Assembly: GCA_964648705.1 (NCBI GenBank)
Contig: CAZYOI010000002.1
Span: forward strand, 1-30,058
DNA: 30,058 bases
Source of the DNA: an uncultured Candidatus Saccharibacteria bacterium
Lineage (GTDB): Bacteria > Patescibacteriota > Minisyncoccia > Minisyncoccales > GWA2-38-27
Direction: 5' to 3'
Part shown: in pieces, positions 7,993-14,189 of the stretch
How the letters are laid out: the number at the start of each line of letters is the position of its first letter
Position numbering within the stretch: the first letter of the stretch is position 1
Position numbers and translations under genes: made by a program
The notes under the pieces: generated by a model
Databases searched by the model: none
The model's input: only the letters and a program-made list of their open reading frames with translations
Told to the model about the DNA's origin: nothing

Positions 7993-10900
7993 CTAGATAT
8001 CAAGGTTCTCCACCTTTTTAGCGTAGTTCTGGATAAACTTCTTTCTGGGAGCCACCTCTCCCCCCATCAGAGTATCAAATATCTTATCTTCTGCCTTAAC
8101 GTCTTCAATAGTAACCTGAAGCAGAATTCTGTTCTCGGGATCCATAGTCGTCTCCCAAAGCTGAGAGGGATTCATTTCTCCCAGACCTTTGTATCTCTGG
8201 ATTGAGAGCTTGACGTTCTTATTCTCCTTCTTAAGCTTTTCTACAAGCTTCTTTCTGCCTTCTTCTGTATAGGCGTATTCTCTCTTTTTCCCTGCCTGGA
8301 TTTTGTAAAGAGGAGGCTGGGCGATATAGAGGTAGCCTTTCTCAATAATAGGCTTAAAGTACCTGTAAAACAAGGTTAAAAGCAGGGTTCTAATGTGGGA
8401 TCCGTCAACGTCAGCGTCCAAGGTCAGAATAATCCTGTGATATCTTGCCCTTTCAATGTCAAACTCCTCCCCTATGGCAGTACCTAAAGCTATAATCAAA
8501 GATTTAATCTCTTTTGAAGAGAGCATTCTGTCTATCCTTGCCTTCTCTACATTCAAAATCTTGCCTCTCAGAGGCAGAACAGCCTGAAACCTTCTATCTC
8601 TGGCGCTTTTGCAACTATTGTGAACAAAAACCCCTGAAGCTAAAGCGAAATTATGAGTATCTTTAACTTCCAAGTCATAAACATCTATTTTTTGCGGCAA
8701 TTTAATTATCTTTTTAATCTTGTGGTTATAATTTAATACAGTCTCTTTTAATCTTTGCTCAACATAGCGCTTGTCACATCCCTCTGTTCTGTTATAAACT
8801 CCATTCTTCAAATTATAGTCATCAGCTAAAAGATGAGTAAAGATCCACTTTTCTTTCTTAGAATCAAAGACCATCTCATATCCATCAATTGTTATTCTGC
8901 CGCCTTTCTTGGAATACTTCTTGTAGAGAGGCATTAGAGAATCTTCTGAAATTAAATCTTTTGCTTTTTTATAACTTCCATCTTTCAACATAAATTTATG
9001 ATCAAGAGTACATCTAATCTCCTCTCCATTATCCAAAATAACCTTTACTACTTCTGTATTAATTTTTGTCTTTCTCGGATACTCTATAAGACCAGCTCCT
9101 ATACTGCCGTCTTTTTTGATTGTATAACAATAATTCTTTTTCCCTTTTCTGTCCTCCTTAACTAACCGTTTAAAGGAAACATTTCTACCATCTAAAAGGG
9201 CGACCTCGGTATCTCCAGAAAAACAACCGCCCGCTGACGAGCCTTCAACAATAAACAATTCTGACTCCTCTGGCTTTTTAGAGGAACAGTCAGCAAGCTT
9301 CCCGGGCAGAGCCAGGCCTTCCAGAGCCCCTTTTCTCAATACTGTTTCTTTGGCTGTCTTAGCTGCTCTCCTTGCTCTGGAGGATAAAATACATTTTTCA
9401 ATAATAGCTTTGGCATCTCTCGGATTCCTCTCAAAAAAGTCAGTAAGGGCTTCGGAAACTACCTGGTCCACAGCAGATTTTACCTCTATGTTTCCCAGTT
9501 TCGCTTTGGTCTGGCCCTCAAACTGAGGCTCTTTTATCTTAACGGAAACCACCCCGGTAAAGCCCTCTCTTACATCCTGACCCGAGAGATTGTCGTCTGA
9601 TTCTTTAAGAAGGTCGTTCTTTCTGGCATAGTCGTTCAATCCCCTGGTAAGAGCCGAACGAAAACCGGTCAGATGGGTTCCTCCTTCCGCTGTAAAGATA
9701 TTATTGGCAAAGCTCTCCTCGTAGGTCTCATACTCTTCTGTATACTGAAAAGAGGCTTCTACCAATATGTCTTCTTTTTCTCCAGAAGCATAAAAGATAT
9801 TGTCATGCAGGGGCTTTACCCCATGAGTCAGATATTTGATATATGAAGCTATCCCTCCTTCGAAATAGAAAGTATAGCTTTTACCTCTCTTCTCTCTCCG
9901 GTCTTCAAAAGTTATCCTTACTCCGCTTGTTAGATAGGCCTGCTGGCGAAGATGGTTTAGAATCCTCTTGGAATTGAACTTTATCTCGCCGAATATCTCA
10001 GGATCCGGTTCAAAAACAACATTAGTTCCCGTACCCTTGCAGCTTCCCTCTTTCTTAAGCTTTGTTTTTGTTTTCCCTTTGGCATACTCTTGAGAATACT
10101 TCTTGCCTTCTCTGCAAACCTCCGCCCTTAAAAACTTAGAAAGGGCGCAAACTACAGAAACGCCTACTCCGTGAAGGCCGCCTGCTACCTGATAGGCCTT
10201 GCCTCCGAACTTTCCTCCGGCATGCAATGTAGTCATAACGGTCTCCAAAGCTGATTTCTTAGTTCCAGGGTGCCTGTCTACAGGAATGCCTCTTCCGTCG
10301 TCTTCTGTCCTGACCCTATTATCCGGCAGCAAAGCAATCTCTATATTCTTAGCATAGCCTCCAATCGCTTCGTCGAGAGAATTGTGAGCCAGAATAGGAG
10401 AAAAGCCCGCCACAAAATTCTCGCCTTCCGGAACCGAAATATCATAAACCCAGGGGTGATTATACTTTATCTTCTCTATTTTCTTTACTCTTAAAATACC
10501 CAAATCCGAATTCAAAAACTTAAAGGCCTCTCTTTTCAGCTCTATCTTATTTTCCTCCAAAAGGCCCAGAGCTTTATTGCAAGAAATTCCTCCTTTCATA
10601 TTAACACCGAAAGAATAAGGCCTTTTATGACTTACATTCGAAATAATCTGATTTGCCGGAATGTAATTGATATAGGAAGAACGACTATTCCAGTAAAAAT
10701 CTAAAGAATAAGAAAGAGATCCCTTTTTTATTCTCAGGGTTCTCTTTCTGCCTTTGTAATTCAGCCCAATAGATCTTTCTTTCTTAAGTCTTTGTTTTCT
10801 AAAAGAGTATGTTTTCTCAAGAGAAGAAAGAAGATAAGAAAAACCAGCTATTAGGTCCCGGCTCCCGCTTACCATAGTAAATTTTCTCCTTTCTTCTTTT

Positions 10901-12195
10901 GAAGGCGAAGTTCCTCCGAGCAGATGGCCGGCAAAAAGTTCACTAGGATAACCGTCTCCCGCCATATAGCCGATTAAATATCTTTCTCTCAGTTCTTTTT
11001 CAAGATTGAAAACAAATCCCGGTATCCTTTTGCTGGCGCTTCCTTTCCCTGTTTTTAATATATCTTTGAAAATAAGGGAGATTAGATAGGAATCTATAGC
11101 TACCGTCCTAGCTGTCTCATGAACATAATGCGGCTTTGACTCAACCCCGAAGCTTTTTTCTATTAACTTGCAAAGATAGCCTATCAATCTTTTCTCATGA
11201 GATCCTAGGCCGAAAACTACCCTGTTAAAAGTATCGCAGGAGCTTTTAACAATACATCCTTCGGCCGCAAAAAGACCTAACAGCTCAACCAAGTCTTTAT
11301 TGACTTCAATAAAGGGCTTTAAGCTAACTTTACTGTTGTTTCTATTGCCGATTAAACAAGATTCCTTGGCCTTCTTAATGCTTTCTTTCCCTAAGATTCT
11401 TAAAAAATTAAAAGGCAGGTAATCGTATCTTTTATAGTCCTGGAAGATATTGGAATAGTGCTGGCTGGAAGCTTTAGCGGCTTTCTTTCGAAGAAGAGGC
11501 TTCAGTTTTTCTCTATTCTCATAAGTGAGTAAATTTCCAACATTTCTAAGAATAAGACTTTCCGTTTTATGCTCGGACAAAGACAAAAACTCTTCTATAA
11601 GGTCTATTTTGTCTATTTTCTCCCGGGGTTCCGGCCACTTTTTGGGTACTACGACAGGCGTTCCTTTTTCAATATCAGATCCCTTTATAGAAACCACCTT
11701 TCCGTCTTTTAAACTAAAAAGAGAATGATAAGGGGTAATCTCAATCGTCCGATTGTTTTGAAGAGTCAAGCGATAAAGAGAACTGTTAACTTTATGCCTG
11801 ATTAAAGAAAAGGCCGGCTTGAACTTAAGCTTTAATGTTTTTGGATCAAAAGAAAGGGTTTGAATATCAAGATTCTTTCTCAAAATTTCAGCTTCGCCCT
11901 TTTTAGCCTTTTCAACAAAGGAGGCGTTCTCTTTAAAAGCCTTGTCAACCAATTCTCCTATCTTTTTTAATTCTGTTATCCCTTTTTCTTTTACAAAAAC
12001 AGGAGTGCTAAAACTGAGAGAATTATCAACCGTCTCCCAAATTAAATGATGAAGCCCGTCAGGCCCCGTAGACCCTATATACATAGCCGGCCTCTTTCTG
12101 ACAGGATCAAGCCCCTCTAAAACATAAATATCCTTTGCCCCGTATTCTGTATTCTTTTTTGAAGAAATTTTCTTCTTGGTTTTCTTTTTAGCCAT
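7993..12195 (-). CDS. gyrB: DNA gyrase subunit B precursor (1400 aa) with two inteins; ~650 aa mature; start reassigned to ATG 12195
   Basis: VLEGLDPVRKRPAMYIGS, ETVDN/SLDEA, GLHGVGVSVV, PQFEGQTK, LPGKLADC, PLRGKILN, DADVDGSHI, QRYKGLGEM, C-terminal ENLDI; 1400-547-203=650 aa. Confidence 0.96.
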   Translation of the reverse strand: MAKKKTKKKISSKKNTEYGAKDIYVLEGLDPVRKRPAMYIGSTGPDGLHHLIWETVDNSLSFSTPVFVKEKGITELKKIGELVDKAFKENASFVEKAKKGEAEILRKNLDIQTLSFDPKTLKLKFKPAFSLIRHKVNSSLYRLTLQNNRTIEITPYHSLFSLKDGKVVSIKGSDIEKGTPVVVPKKWPEPREKIDKIDLIEEFLSLSEHKTESLILRNVGNLLTYENREKLKPLLRKKAAKASSQHYSNIFQDYKRYDYLPFNFLRILGKESIKKAKESCLIGNRNNSKVSLKPFIEVNKDLVELLGLFAAEGCIVKSSCDTFNRVVFGLGSHEKRLIGYLCKLIEKSFGVESKPHYVHETARTVAIDSYLISLIFKDILKTGKGSASKRIPGFVFNLEKELRERYLIGYMAGDGYPSELFAGHLLGGTSPSKEERRKFTMVSGSRDLIAGFSYLLSSLEKTYSFRKQRLKKERSIGLNYKGRKRTLRIKKGSLSYSLDFYWNSRSSYINYIPANQIISNVSHKRPYSFGVNMKGGISCNKALGLLEENKIELKREAFKFLNSDLGILRVKKIEKIKYNHPWVYDISVPEGENFVAGFSPILAHNSLDEAIGGYAKNIEIALLPDNRVRTEDDGRGIPVDRHPGTKKSALETVMTTLHAGGKFGGKAYQVAGGLHGVGVSVVCALSKFLRAEVCREGKKYSQEYAKGKTKTKLKKEGSCKGTGTNVVFEPDPEIFGEIKFNSKRILNHLRQQAYLTSGVRITFEDRREKRGKSYTFYFEGGIASYIKYLTHGVKPLHDNIFYASGEKEDILVEASFQYTEEYETYEESFANNIFTAEGGTHLTGFRSALTRGLNDYARKNDLLKESDDNLSGQDVREGFTGVVSVKIKEPQFEGQTKAKLGNIEVKSAVDQVVSEALTDFFERNPRDAKAIIEKCILSSRARRAAKTAKETVLRKGALEGLALPGKLADCSSKKPEESELFIVEGSSAGGCFSGDTEVALLDGRNVSFKRLVKEDRKGKKNYCYTIKKDGSIGAGLIEYPRKTKINTEVVKVILDNGEEIRCTLDHKFMLKDGSYKKAKDLISEDSLMPLYKKYSKKGGRITIDGYEMVFDSKKEKWIFTHLLADDYNLKNGVYNRTEGCDKRYVEQRLKETVLNYNHKIKKIIKLPQKIDVYDLEVKDTHNFALASGVFVHNSCKSARDRRFQAVLPLRGKILNVEKARIDRMLSSKEIKSLIIALGTAIGEEFDIERARYHRIILTLDADVDGSHIRTLLLTLFYRYFKPIIEKGYLYIAQPPLYKIQAGKKREYAYTEEGRKKLVEKLKKENKNVKLSIQRYKGLGEMNPSQLWETTMDPENRILLQVTIEDVKAEDKIFDTLMGGEVAPRKKFIQNYAKKVENLDI
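8617..9225 (-). mobile_element. GyrB intein 2 (203 aa, Cys1...His-Asn, +1 Ser) in the Toprim motif; no complete endonuclease
   Basis: SAGG|CFSGDTEV start, CTLDHKF block B, VYDLEVKDTHNFALASGVFVHN|S end. Confidence 0.95.
10381..12021 (-). mobile_element. GyrB intein 1 (547 aa, Ser1...His-Asn, +1 Ser) with LAGLIDADG homing endonuclease, in the ATPase N-box
   Basis: VDN|SLSFSTPV start, ITPYHSLF block B, LLGLFAAEG and LIGYMAGDG LAGLIDADG motifs, VYDISVPEGENFVAGFSPILAHN|SLDEA end. Confidence 0.95.
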
Positions 12196-12197
12196 AG

Positions 12198-14189
12198 TTA
12201 TTTTCTTACCTGCCATTCGACTTTAGAATCTAAAGCCTTAATGATTTTATCTTGTAATTTGCTTATCTCTTTGTTATCCAGGGTCCTGTCTTCCGCCTGA
12301 TAGATAATATGGAAAGCGAGGTTCTTTTTGCCCTCTGGCATGCCTTCTCCTTCATAAATATCAAAGAGGTCTATATCCCTAATCAAAGAGCCGCCGGCAG
12401 AATTAATCCTGTTCATCACTTCCTCCGCCTTAACCCCTAAAGGAACCAAAACAGCGATATCTCTCACAGCTGAAGGATAGCGGGATATCGGCTGGTATTC
12501 CTGATCTTCTGAAGCTTTTTTCTGAAGCTTTTCAAAGTTAATCTCAAAAGCTGTTACTTTTTTGTCTATCTTCACTTTTTTAAGAATATTAGAAGATATC
12601 TCCCCCAAAAAGCCGATCTCTTCAGAATCCGCCTTAATTTCAGCGCGCCTCCCCTTTTCCCAAAAGCTCTTTTTGCTTTCTTCGGGCGTTGCTTTAAAGT
12701 CATCATACCAGATTTCGCTGATTCCCATCTTCTCTAAAAGATCGTCAACAATTCCTTTTAGCCTGTAAAAATCCTTGCTGTCGGAAAAAACAGAAAGCAT
12801 TCTTTCTTCTTTCCCCCTGAAAAAAACCTTTCCCAGCTCAAAGATGTCTATTTCATCGAAGTTTCTGCTGTTTTCCTTTATTGTTTTTAAAAGGTTGGGA
12901 ATCAAGCTTGGCCTCAAATACCCCTGATCTGAGCTTAAGGGGTTTTCAATCTTTGCCAGATCTTTCTTGTATCCAAAATCTTCTGCCTGCTTTTTAGAGA
13001 TAAAGGAGTAATTGTATACTTCAGAAAAGTTTTCTTTTAAAACATCTTTAACAAAATTCTCCCAAAAGACAGAGGAGTTCTTCTCGGGAGGAATCAAAGA
13101 AGAAAAGGGAAACTCTGAAGGAATGTTTTCAAAACCGTAAACCCTTCCAACCTCTTCTATTAAATCCTCCTCTATTGAAAGATCAAGGCGGTAGATAGGG
13201 ACTTTAACCCCCTTCTTTGAAACCTCAAAGCCCAATCTCTTTAAAATGTCTTTTATCTCTTTATCTTTAATCTCAATTCCAAGCAGCTTTCTTAAATAAT
13301 TGTTATCAAGCTTTATGGTTTTAGGAGTTCTTTTTTCCGGATAATAATCTATCATTCCTGAAATATCCCTGCCTCCGGCTTCTTTTTCTATGAGGTAGGC
13401 TGCCCTCTTTATAGCTTCTTCTGTAAGATTGGGGTCAAGCTCGTTTTCAAACCTCCAGGAAGCATCGGTCTTTAAATCAAGCTTTCTGGAAGACTTCCTT
13501 ATCAAAGAATAATTGAAATTGGCAGACTCCAAGATTATAGTTTTAGTCCCTTTCCCTATTTCAGCCTTCTTTCCTCCTTTTATGCCAGCCACGGCCAAGG
13601 GACCTTCTTTGTCTGATATCACCAGAATGCTGCTGTCCAGCTTGTACCTGTTATTGTCCAAGCTTACAATCTCTTCTCCCTTTTCAGCTCTCCTGACAAA
13701 AATACCCCCTGAAACCTTGTCATAGTCAAAGGCATGAAGGGGCTGCCCCGTTTCAAGCATAACGTAGTTGGCAATGTCTACAATGTTGTTTACAGGCTGA
13801 AGGCCACAGGCCTCGATTCTTTCTTTAATCCATTTGGGAGAAGGGCCTACTTTAACTTCTTTCATCACTAAAGCTGTATAACGGGAACAGTCCTTTTTGC
13901 TTTTAACTTGAATCTTTAAAAGGGAGCTATCTTTTCTGCCCCCGGTTTTCTCCTTCAAGGCCTCTATTCTCTTTCCTGTAAGGGCGGATATCTCTCTGGC
14001 CACCCCCAAATGAGAGAGACAGTCGGAAGACCTGTTGGGAAGAACGTCAATATCAAGAAGAAAATCCCCTTTCTTTTTCTCAATATCCTCCACTTCAAAG
14101 CTGTGCATAGTCAAAAGCTCTCCTAATTTTCCAGGTTTAGGAAGTTTTTTCTTGAAAAAAGATTGTAGCCAGTTATAGGAAAAAATCAT
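12198..14189 (-). CDS. pheT: Phenylalanyl-tRNA synthetase beta subunit (short form, apparently lacking the B2 OB-fold)
   Basis: MIFSYNWL, PNRSSDCLSHLGVAREI, NNIVDIANYVMLETGQPLHAFD, RLDLSIEEDLIEEVGRVYG, C-terminal RYPSAVRDIA anticodon-binding domain. Confidence 0.95.
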   Translation of the reverse strand: MIFSYNWLQSFFKKKLPKPGKLGELLTMHSFEVEDIEKKKGDFLLDIDVLPNRSSDCLSHLGVAREISALTGKRIEALKEKTGGRKDSSLLKIQVKSKKDCSRYTALVMKEVKVGPSPKWIKERIEACGLQPVNNIVDIANYVMLETGQPLHAFDYDKVSGGIFVRRAEKGEEIVSLDNNRYKLDSSILVISDKEGPLAVAGIKGGKKAEIGKGTKTIILESANFNYSLIRKSSRKLDLKTDASWRFENELDPNLTEEAIKRAAYLIEKEAGGRDISGMIDYYPEKRTPKTIKLDNNYLRKLLGIEIKDKEIKDILKRLGFEVSKKGVKVPIYRLDLSIEEDLIEEVGRVYGFENIPSEFPFSSLIPPEKNSSVFWENFVKDVLKENFSEVYNYSFISKKQAEDFGYKKDLAKIENPLSSDQGYLRPSLIPNLLKTIKENSRNFDEIDIFELGKVFFRGKEERMLSVFSDSKDFYRLKGIVDDLLEKMGISEIWYDDFKATPEESKKSFWEKGRRAEIKADSEEIGFLGEISSNILKKVKIDKKVTAFEINFEKLQKKASEDQEYQPISRYPSAVRDIAVLVPLGVKAEEVMNRINSAGGSLIRDIDLFDIYEGEGMPEGKKNLAFHIIYQAEDRTLDNKEISKLQDKIIKALDSKVEWQVRK

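What the first reader, a model, noticed from the sequence alone, without database searches (positions are those of the whole stretch)
10381..12021. Archaeal-style Ser1 LAGLIDADG intein inserted directly after the Mg-ATP-binding Asn of GyrB
Seen: 547-aa intein between ETVDN and SLDEA, starting with Ser, with both LAGLIDADG motifs intact. Established: this Asn is the GHKL N-box residue (E. coli GyrB N46), so unspliced protein should lack ATPase activity. Inference from recalled sequences: the segments SLIRHK...IEITPYHSLF...VVVPKK and VYDISV..GENFVAGF..ILAHN resemble Thermococcales PolB inteins of the PI-TkoII/PI-PspI type, which also start with Ser and sit in an N|S context, suggesting archaea-to-CPR intein flow.
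Basis: partly seen in the sequence, partly recalled or inferred. Interest (0 to 1): 0.75.

Follow-up and report, generated by a model that had tools for sequence, protein, structure and literature searches.

The report
Homing intein splitting gyrase B ATP site
The only gyrase B gene of this tiny Patescibacteria genome is interrupted, right at its ATP/Mg-binding asparagine, by an intact self-splicing mobile intein; the same intein lineage is already present in over a hundred public genomes and probably jumped once from the matching spot of archaeal topoisomerase VI-B into bacterial gyrase B.

Summary
Window 10381..12021 (minus strand) encodes a 547-aa intein between ETVDN and SLDEA of the genome's only gyrB. 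It has Ser1, block B TPYH, both LAGLIDADG motifs, terminal HN and Ser+1. The flanking Asn aligns with E. coli GyrB N46.

It is not a one-off. About 95 protein clusters and 117 species genomes carry a homologous intein at this site. These hosts are GyrB of Patescibacteria, Chloroflexota, Acidobacteriota and Planctomycetota, and Top6B of DPANN and haloarchaea at the homologous GHKL N-box Asn. Earlier notes of this scan found the same allele on other DNA.

The 'archaeal-style' hunch is partly right:
- The best solved match is PI-PkoII, by sequence (E 8e-30) and by fold (TM 0.71).
- The nearest non-GHKL relatives sit in archaeal-type host proteins.
- In rooted trees the GyrB inteins form one clade nested among Top6B inteins (98/95). 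Top6B monophyly is not formally rejected (AU p 0.08).

The likely route is therefore archaeal Top6B to bacterial GyrB, not Thermococcales PolB to CPR. This copy's nearest relatives are other CPR GyrB inteins.

Only 1 of the 40 nearest relatives carries it, so its distribution is sporadic rather than broadly vertical.

Verdict: an ordinary member of a known kind, with a modestly interesting cross-gene, cross-domain history.

The parts
7993..12216 (-). gyrB precursor gene (1407 aa), the only gyrB found in the 562-kb genome; carries two inteins
   Evidence: ORF list and translation. Pfam HATPase_c, DNA_gyraseB, Toprim and DNA_gyraseB_C. One match to the extein in G000.
12022..12216 (-). N-extein (aa 1-65), ending in the GHKL N-box LIWETVDN (12022..12045); the last Asn equals E. 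coli GyrB N46
   Evidence: Alignment to solved GyrB chains ends at residue 46 of E. coli-numbered chains.
10381..12021 (-). Intein 1: 547-aa class-1 Ser1 intein with a LAGLIDADG homing endonuclease
   Evidence: AF2 model pLDDT 95.4. Best fold match PI-PkoII 2cw7, TM 0.71.
11983..12021 (-). Splicing block A (SLSFSTPVFVKEK) with the Ser1 nucleophile
   Evidence: Ser1 is invariant in 95/95 homologues.
11719..11748 (-). Splicing block B (TIEITPYHSL; T96 and H99)
   Evidence: T96 and H99 are invariant columns.
11254..11286 (-). First LAGLIDADG motif (ELLGLFAAEGC; catalytic E254)
   Evidence: E254 conserved in at least 90 % of homologues.
10948..10980 (-). Second LAGLIDADG motif (YLIGYMAGDGY; catalytic D356)
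   Evidence: D356 invariant.
10381..10452 (-). Splicing blocks F and G (WVYDISVPEGENFVAGFSPILAHN; D527, H546, N547)
   Evidence: D527 and N547 invariant, H546 at least 90 %.
10357..10380 (-). Start of the middle extein (SLDEAIGG) with the Ser+1 nucleophile; this is the second half of the N-box
   Evidence: +1 is Ser in 93/95 and Cys in 2/95 homologues.
8617..9225 (-). Intein 2: 203-aa Cys1 mini-intein at the Toprim SAGG|S site. It is a separate element, listed because mature GyrB needs both splices.
   Evidence: The sister genome's copy is 421 aa with an HNH-like stretch (P0002).

Best explanation
Window 10381..12021 (-) is an intact, canonical class-1 intein (Ser1, TxxH, HN, Ser+1) that carries a two-motif LAGLIDADG homing endonuclease. 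It sits directly after the Mg-ATP-binding N-box Asn of the genome's only GyrB.

Inferred mechanism. The 1407-aa precursor cannot form the GHKL ATP site. The intein folds and removes itself by the standard four-step splicing reaction (N-O acyl shift at Ser1, transesterification to Ser+1, Asn547 cyclisation, O-N shift), which restores ...ETVDN-SLDEA.... The freed intein, or the precursor, cuts intein-free gyrB alleles at the rebuilt site. Recombinational repair then copies the intein in, which is homing.

Evolution. The element belongs to one lineage of 'GHKL N-box inteins'. These occupy the same structural position in bacterial GyrB (Patescibacteria, Chloroflexota, Acidobacteriota, Planctomycetota) and in archaeal Top6B (DPANN, haloarchaea). 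The GyrB branch most likely arose from one jump out of an archaeal Top6B gene. The shared coding motif E-x-V-D-N|S-[LI]-D makes the two DNA targets up to 26/30 identical, which would have made such a jump possible. The intein then spread patchily within bacterial phyla. In this genome it was gained in the recent ancestor of two sister species, from another Patescibacteria source.

Shown: anatomy, site, conservation, distribution, tree topology. Inferred: splicing, endonuclease activity, direction of the jump.
For: Anatomy and site.

Same junction in homologues: Ser1 in 95/95, HN in 93/95, +1 Ser or Cys in 95/95.

Fold: AF2 model pLDDT 95.4 and pTM 0.93. Best fold matches are PI-PkoII, then the Tli and Pho VMA inteins, PI-PfuI, PI-SceI and I-DmoI.

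Selection: against the sister copy L006, dN/dS is about 0.06-0.08 in the Hint lobes, the LAGLIDADG core and the beta domain.

Distribution: about 95 clusters at 90 % identity. 117 of 185,579 species genomes carry a relative; GyrB hosts are bacterial and Top6B hosts archaeal. It was found in 1 of 400 other genomes sampled from the phylum and 1 of the 40 nearest relatives. The intein-free congeners G401 and G403 have uninterrupted N-boxes.

Trees: the GHKL N-box inteins form one clade (99-100). The GyrB inteins form one clade (100/100). GyrB is sister to 15 Top6B inteins, to the exclusion of the Micrarchaeota/Iainarchaeota Top6B inteins (98/95). Two more divergent Top6B N-box inteins fall outside all of these (83/61).

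Outgroups: the nearest non-GHKL relatives sit in MCM, FlaI/VirB11-type ATPase, TFIIB, PriS/PriL, XPD and AMP-phosphorylase-type proteins, all with Ser1. One is named Micrarchaeota.

Target similarity: the rebuilt empty sites share GA..gT.GA.AAt|TC..T.GAcG, and the best GyrB/Top6B pair matches at 26/30 nt.

Composition: intein GC 0.371 against extein 0.442.
Against: No splicing or cleavage was measured.

dS against the sister copy is saturated (about 2), so the dN/dS values are rough.

The nesting of GyrB inside Top6B rests on distant outgroups at about 30 % identity. Many rows have deviant amino-acid composition. The AU test does not reject a single Top6B clade (p 0.081), and the basal placement of P0171 and P0186 is only 83/61.

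Outgroup organisms are mostly unnamed; 'archaeal' is inferred from the host protein families.

Intein and extein identities fall together across hosts. That also fits some vertical descent with losses.

A few GyrB hosts carry archaeal labels (P0076 Heimdallarchaeaceae, L053 Nanoarchaeota). This blurs the split between bacterial GyrB and archaeal Top6B.
Confidence: 0.8

Rival explanations
1. Reverse direction. The lineage arose in bacterial GyrB and jumped into archaeal Top6B, or the two host sets are reciprocally monophyletic and the direction cannot be known.
For: The AU test does not reject Top6B as one clade (p 0.081). The quick tree left a trichotomy. Rooting depends on distant outgroups and on rows with skewed composition.
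Against: The careful trees put GyrB sister to one Top6B subgroup (98/95). Only 2 % of bootstrap trees have Top6B as one clade. More divergent Top6B N-box inteins branch deeper still. Every characterised outgroup host is an archaeal-type protein.
Confidence: 0.15
2. Vertical inheritance. The intein is an old resident of Patescibacteria gyrB, inherited vertically and lost precisely many times.
For: CPR copies group together (support 86-92). Intein and extein identities to the window fall in parallel: 74/92, 57/73, 50/63, 40/50. dS is similar in intein and extein against the sister species.
Against: The intein was found in only 1 of 400 other phylum genomes and 1 of the 40 nearest relatives. Two of the three congeners lack it. 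That pattern would need very many independent precise deletions. Intein GC is 7 points below extein GC. CPR class labels are mixed within intein subclades, for example the Magasanikbacteria copy L030 groups with Paceibacterota while L055 lies elsewhere.
Confidence: 0.1
3. Direct transfer from a Thermococcales-type PolB intein (PI-TkoII/PI-PspI) into CPR gyrB.
For: PI-PkoII is the best solved-structure match. The PolB pol-c site also has an N|S junction (P0242).
Against: Identity is only 22 % and about 100 bits, which places the PolB inteins below roughly 100 other representative clusters. The Top6B inteins (33-38 %) and inteins in MCM, FlaI-type ATPases, TFIIB and AMP-phosphorylase-type proteins are all closer. 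PI-PkoII ranks first only because few inteins have solved structures.
Confidence: 0.03
4. Domesticated switch. The intein is kept because conditional splicing regulates gyrase ATPase activity, for example under redox, temperature or starvation stress. This is not exclusive of the best explanation.
For: The position abolishes the ATP site until splicing occurs. There is purifying selection on the splicing lobes. The published 'panic button' idea for replisome inteins comes from Novikova et al. 2016 (PMC4760082).
Against: The endonuclease core is equally conserved, and the distribution is sporadic. This is the signature of a selfish homing cycle. A Ser1/Ser+1 intein has no catalytic Cys on which a redox switch could act. 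No data on conditional splicing exist.
Confidence: 0.1

Closest known systems
PI-PkoII (PI-TkoII; Thermococcus kodakarensis Pol-2 intein, PDB 2cw7/2cw8)
   Same: Ser1 class-1 intein of similar size (537 vs 547 aa). Same multi-domain build: Hint lobes, linker region, two-motif LAGLIDADG core, extra beta domain. It is the best sequence match (E 8e-30) and the best fold match (E 1e-38, TM 0.71/0.72).
   Different: Different host gene and site: family-B DNA polymerase, with the KILAN|S junction seen in P0242. Only 22 % identity. Many unsolved archaeal inteins are closer. It is a superfamily relative, not the same allele.
Top6B inteins of archaea (catalogued as a host in Soucy et al. 2014, PMC4071816, and Novikova et al. 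2016, PMC4760082)
   Same: Same structural insertion point (after the GHKL N-box Asn), same Ser1...HN|S junction, 31-40 % identity over the full length, and one clade with the GyrB inteins.
   Different: The host is topoisomerase VI-B of DPANN and haloarchaea, not GyrB. The papers do not say which Top6B site their allele occupies. Haloarchaeal Top6B also has a second site, REQS|LTP...VKN|SRGQQG (P0096, P0114).
Published GyrB intein allele (Ssp GyrB type; cyanobacteria and Halobacteria; Soucy et al. 2014, PMC4071816)
   Same: Same host protein; also a class-1 intein.
   Different: By my recollection it sits at the Toprim EGDSAGG|C site, which is where this gene's second intein lies (8617..9225), and not at the N-box. 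It has Cys1, and the relative P0002 has an HNH-type insert there.
Mja/Mvu TFIIB mini-inteins (PDB 5o9j, 5o9i)
   Same: Second-best solved matches. The Hint lobes are 29-35 % identical (E 5e-28 and 5e-23; rmsd 1.3-1.5 A for Mvu, 5o9i). They share the Ser1 'S-x-D/S-x-x-x-P' start.
   Different: The crystallised chains are mini-inteins of 184-195 aa with no endonuclease domain. Different archaeal host protein.

Membership tests
Class-1 intein (Hint fold, Pfam PF14890) | Profile match above the curated threshold | tested here: met
   Intein_splicing 73.9 bits against a cut-off of 35.8.
Class-1 intein (Hint fold, Pfam PF14890) | N-terminal nucleophile (Cys/Ser1), block B TxxH, block F Asp, terminal His-Asn, +1 Ser/Thr/Cys | tested here: met
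   S1, T96-P-Y-H99, D527, H546-N547 and S+1 are present. They are conserved across 95 homologues.
Class-1 intein (Hint fold, Pfam PF14890) | Removal restores a colinear host protein | tested here: met
   The extein is 658 aa with all GyrB domains. The N-extein aligns to solved GyrB up to N46. Intein-free congeners read DN|ALDEA or DN|SLDEA without a break.
Class-1 intein (Hint fold, Pfam PF14890) | Protein splicing actually occurs | not testable with these tools
   Needs expression and a gel or mass spectrometry. Indirect support: it is the only gyrB in a 95 % complete genome, and dN/dS is about 0.06-0.08.
LAGLIDADG homing endonuclease (monomeric, two motifs) | Two LAGLIDADG motifs, each with a catalytic acidic residue | tested here: met
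   ELLGLFAAEGC (E254) and YLIGYMAGDGY (D356). D356 is invariant and E254 is at least 90 % conserved.
LAGLIDADG homing endonuclease (monomeric, two motifs) | Profile and fold match | tested here: met
   LAGLIDADG_3 25.4 bits against a cut-off of 22.5, which is marginal. The model matches PI-PkoII, PI-PfuI, PI-SceI and I-DmoI.
LAGLIDADG homing endonuclease (monomeric, two motifs) | Site-specific cleavage of the intein-free allele | not testable with these tools
   Needs an in vitro cleavage assay.
GHKL N-box intein lineage (GyrB/Top6B) | Insertion directly after the Mg-ATP-binding Asn of Bergerat-fold motif I | tested here: met
   ETVDN|S aligns with E. coli N46. The Top6B junction VDN|SLDA matches the S. 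shibatae ELIEN-SLDAT motif.
GHKL N-box intein lineage (GyrB/Top6B) | Phylogenetic membership of the clade | tested here: met
   The window groups with L006 (100*), inside a CPR clade, inside the GyrB clade (100/100), inside the GHKL clade (99-100).
PolB pol-c intein allele (PI-PkoII/PI-PspI type) | Same host gene and insertion site | tested here: not met
   The host is GyrB, not PolB. The PolB junction is KILAN|S...HN|SYYGYYGY.
PolB pol-c intein allele (PI-PkoII/PI-PspI type) | Allele-level sequence similarity | tested here: not met
   22 % identity to 2cw7. About 98-107 bits, against 400-880 bits for GyrB inteins at this site.
Ssp GyrB-type (Toprim-site) GyrB intein allele | Insertion at EGxSAGG|[CS] of the Toprim domain | tested here: not met
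   Intein 1 lies about 930 residues upstream in the precursor. The Toprim site is occupied by intein 2.

The most novel reading that the evidence does not exclude
One homing-endonuclease intein lineage crossed both a gene-family boundary and a domain boundary. It moved from archaeal topoisomerase VI-B into bacterial gyrase B by ectopic homing, guided only by the roughly 20-30 bp that encode the shared GHKL N-box (E-x-V-D-N|S-L-D). It then radiated in Patescibacteria and three other bacterial phyla. If so, present-day enzymes of the two branches may still cut each other's empty sites. That would give a directly testable natural example of how inteins colonise new host genes.
Probability: 0.55. 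Interest if true: 0.55.

Novelty: new member of a known kind. Interest (0 to 1): 0.38.

Why it matters
For this organism, every active gyrase molecule depends on two successive protein-splicing events. One of them rebuilds the ATP-binding motif itself.

More generally, the data connect two sets of public sequences that are annotated only as 'DNA gyrase subunit B' or 'topoisomerase VI subunit B'. They form one intein lineage sitting at the same catalytic residue of two very distantly related GHKL ATPases, in two domains of life. This is a clean natural case for studying how a homing endonuclease acquires a new host gene through a shared short motif. It also marks gene flow between archaea and bacteria that share habitats.

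I found no paper in the searchable library that describes this N-box allele or the GyrB/Top6B link. However, intein hosts GyrB and Top6B are long catalogued, and the sequences are public. The gain is incremental.

Tried and rejected
**Vectors.** tblastn of the intein against 50,697 phage records gave no match. A pattern scan of IMG/VR viral contigs gave no confirmed relative. No viral carrier was found with these queries.

**Sequencing runs.**
- Four DNA runs hold the stretch: three microbial-mat runs of one study and one aquatic run. No RNA holder is listed.
- Only Logan contigs are kept for these runs, so nothing can be said about expression or allele frequency.
- Contigs cross both intein junctions, for example X1 record 3 (9586-10795) and record 7 (11602-12475). 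No contig joins 10380 to 12022 exactly.
- One 507-nt contig in X2 matches 10187-10218 and 12073-12102 with 213 other letters between. 213 is exactly the extein length expected without the intein. It is most simply an intein-free gyrB of a diverged relative, not a polymorphism of this strain.

**Literature.** Five full-text searches and five papers were read. None names the GyrB or Top6B insertion site. The supplement of Novikova et al. is not held. InBase could not be consulted.

**Cluster names.** Names for the outgroup proteins were mostly missing.

**Selection analysis.** dN/dS for the linker region failed because dS is saturated.

**Not attempted.** The remaining 53 unlabelled representative hits were not classified. 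No formal intein/extein reconciliation was attempted.

Full report
**1. What is in the sequence**

The minus strand of window 7993..12216 holds one 1407-aa open frame with all GyrB domains: HATPase_c, DNA_gyraseB, Toprim and the GyrB C-terminal domain. They map to window 10381..12021, which is 547 aa. The junctions are ETVDN|SLSFSTPV and PILAHN|SLDEA.

A second, 203-aa Cys1 mini-intein lies at 8617..9225, in the Toprim SAGG|S site. Without both inserts the protein is a normal 658-aa GyrB.

The insert scores 73.9 bits on Pfam Intein_splicing (cut-off 35.8) and 25.4 bits on LAGLIDADG_3 (cut-off 22.5). The N-extein aligns to solved GyrB structures right up to its last residue. That residue corresponds to position 46 in E. 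coli-numbered chains such as 6rks_B and 4duh_A. This is the N-box Asn, which from established knowledge of the GHKL fold coordinates Mg-ATP. The genome (562 kb, 59 contigs, 95 % complete) has a single gyrB.

**2. Is it an intact, working-looking element?**

All residues that define a class-1 intein are present: Ser1, TPYH (T96, H99), block F Asp527, His546-Asn547 and Ser+1. Both LAGLIDADG acidic residues (E254, D356) and a conserved Lys331 are also present. These are exactly the invariant or near-invariant columns in an alignment of 95 homologues.

An AlphaFold2 model built on that alignment is very confident (pLDDT 95.4, pTM 0.93). Its best PDB matches are full-size archaeal intein endonucleases:
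- PI-PkoII 2cw7 (E 1e-38, TM 0.71/0.72 over the whole chain);
- the Tli and Pho VMA inteins;
- PI-PfuI.

PI-SceI and I-DmoI match the endonuclease part.

Against the sister-species copy (L006, 74 % identical), dN/dS is about 0.06-0.08 in the Hint lobes, the LAGLIDADG core and the extra beta domain. dS is saturated, so these values are rough. The intein is AT-richer than its host gene (GC 0.371 vs 0.442; GC3 0.356 vs 0.458). Nothing suggests decay. Splicing and cleavage themselves were not, and cannot be, tested here.

**3. How common is it, and where?**

A word-indexed search of 5.8 billion proteins found about 95 GyrB clusters with a 39-74 % identical intein. In 95 of 95 full-length cases the junction is the same:
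- ...[V]DN|S[LV][TS]... at the N-terminal end;
- ...HN|S[LI]DEA at the C-terminal end.

Ser1 occurs in all, HN in 93, and +1 is Ser in 93 and Cys in 2.

A scan of one genome per GTDB species found 117 genomes with a relative. Reading the junctions of the best 80 shows two host genes:
- **GyrB** in Patescibacteria (Nealson-, Lipton-, Wolfe- and Magasanikbacteria, Paceibacterota and others; 43-74 %), Chloroflexota, Acidobacteriota and Planctomycetota (38-42 %).
- **Topoisomerase VI subunit B** in Woesearchaeota, Nanoarchaeota, Micrarchaeota, Iainarchaeota, Nanohaloarchaea and Halobacteria (31-38 %).

In Top6B the junction is KE[AG]VDN|SLT...CHN|SLDAC/T. This is the homologous N-box Asn: the intein-free Top6B P0114 aligns there with the S. 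shibatae ELIEN-SLDAT motif.

The allele is therefore widespread, but rare within any one group. It was found in 1 of 400 other genomes sampled across the phylum. Among the 40 nearest relatives only G402, a congener, has it. The other two congeners (G401, G403) and the family and order members examined have uninterrupted N-boxes.

Earlier notes of this scan had already recorded the same allele in other GyrB genes, in Top6B genes and in a viral GHKL protein. I treated these as leads and re-derived the GyrB/Top6B link independently.

**4. Where did it come from?**

Outside the GHKL hosts, the best of 1,735 representative hits (about 30 % identity, E 1e-60 to 1e-30) sit in these hosts:
- FlaI/VirB11-type ATPases;
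- MCM;
- AMP/thymidine-phosphorylase-type proteins;
- TFIIB;
- XPD;
- TopA;
- primase PriS/PriL;
- RNR;
- CDC48.

Those whose junctions I extracted (all of these hosts except RNR and CDC48) have clean Ser1...HN|S/T junctions. These are overwhelmingly archaeal-type proteins. One is named Micrarchaeota.

Trees of the inteins gave the following results (IQ-TREE, LG+C20 PMSF):
- The GHKL N-box inteins are one clade (99-100).
- All GyrB inteins are one clade (100/100).
- The GyrB clade is sister to 15 Top6B inteins, excluding the Micrarchaeota/Iainarchaeota Top6B group (98/95). Top6B is a single clade in only 2 % of bootstrap trees.
- Two still more divergent Top6B N-box inteins (P0171, P0186) fall outside the whole group (83/61).

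The most parsimonious reading is a lineage resident in archaeal Top6B that entered bacterial GyrB once.

Caveats:
- The AU test does not reject a single Top6B clade (p 0.081).
- The outgroups are distant.
- Many rows have skewed composition.

A mechanism for the jump is visible in the DNA. The rebuilt empty sites of the two genes share GA..gT.GA.AAt|TC..T.GAcG, and the best GyrB/Top6B pair is identical at 26 of 30 positions. Both genes encode E-x-V-D-N-S-[LI]-D there.

No phage or IMG/VR copy was found that could point to a vector.

**5.

The recalled similarity to PI-TkoII/PI-PspI is genuine. PI-PkoII is the top solved hit by sequence (E 8e-30) and by fold. A PolB homologue shows the recalled N|S junction, KILAN|SILPDEW...AHN|SYYGYYGY (P0242).

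But this is superfamily-level kinship: 22 % identity and about 100 bits. It ranks first only because few inteins have structures. The nearest relatives are bacterial GyrB inteins, then archaeal Top6B inteins.

So 'archaeal-style' and 'archaeal ancestry' are supported. 'PolB-to-CPR flow' is not. CPR cannot be singled out as the entry point into bacteria, because the Planctomycetota and Chloroflexota/Acidobacteriota branches are equally deep. Within this genome's order, the pattern is a recent gain shared by two sister species.

**6. Rivals**

- **Reverse direction, GyrB to Top6B.** This stays possible at about 0.15, for the rooting reasons given above.
- **Long vertical residence with many precise losses.** The parallel fall of intein and extein identity fits it. 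The 1/400 and 1/40 occupancy and the GC offset argue against it.
- **A regulatory 'switch' role.** This is not excluded but has no support. The endonuclease is as conserved as the splicing lobes, which is the signature of a homing cycle.

**7. Verdict**

This is a real, intact LAGLIDADG intein at the N-box Asn of GyrB. It is a canonical member of a known kind and one of more than a hundred public copies of this allele. The added value is the demonstration that GyrB and Top6B N-box inteins are one lineage, with probable archaeal Top6B ancestry. I could not find that link described in the searchable literature.

Noticed in passing
window 8617..9225 (-): The second GyrB intein is a 203-aa mini-intein at the Toprim SAGG|S site. 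The sister species' copy (P0002 / L006) is 421 aa at the same site and holds an HNH-like stretch (HHIDFNKLNNNPDN...). The window's copy therefore looks like a recent deletion of the endonuclease domain.
   Followed up: partly
G000 contigs C45, C30 and C14 (L003, L004, L002): The 562-kb genome carries at least three more LAGLIDADG inteins: in DnaG primase, in FtsH, and in a 1089-aa protein with no other Pfam domain. With the two in GyrB that makes at least five inteins, a high load for so small a genome.
   Followed up: partly
L088 (G403) and L089 (G401), N-box of gyrB: The two intein-free congeners read DN|ALDEA, with Ala at +1 and 3-5 base differences in the central target. An Ala at +1 could not support splicing, so these may be homing-resistant alleles.
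   Followed up: no
P0096 and P0114 (haloarchaeal Top6B): A second Top6B intein site, REQS|LTP...VKN|SRGQQGIG. It is occupied in P0114 (which has no N-box intein) and in P0096 (which has both). It is unclear which of the two is the published halobacterial 'top6B' allele.
   Followed up: no
P0033, P0073, P0085 (GyrB of 2207-2235 aa): Many N-box-intein GyrB genes carry a second or third full-size LAGLIDADG intein further downstream, around precursor residues 1040-2060. More than half of the reading frame is then intein.
   Followed up: no
P0076 and L053: Two GyrB genes with this intein come from bins labelled as archaea (Heimdallarchaeaceae, Nanoarchaeota). L053 groups with the Planctomycetota copies. 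This could be real archaeal gyrase or mis-binning.
   Followed up: no
run X2, 507-nt contig laid at window 10187-10218 and 12073-12102: This contig has exactly 213 other letters between the two matched ends. That is the length expected for a gyrB without the intein, so it is probably a diverged intein-free relative in the same microbial mat.
   Followed up: no
P0153 and P0155: Related Ser1 inteins share one junction (LFRxPY|SVDF...LLHN|SLHxKT) in proteins that score as primase large subunit (P0153) and small subunit (P0155). These may be fused or mis-split archaeal primase genes.
   Followed up: no
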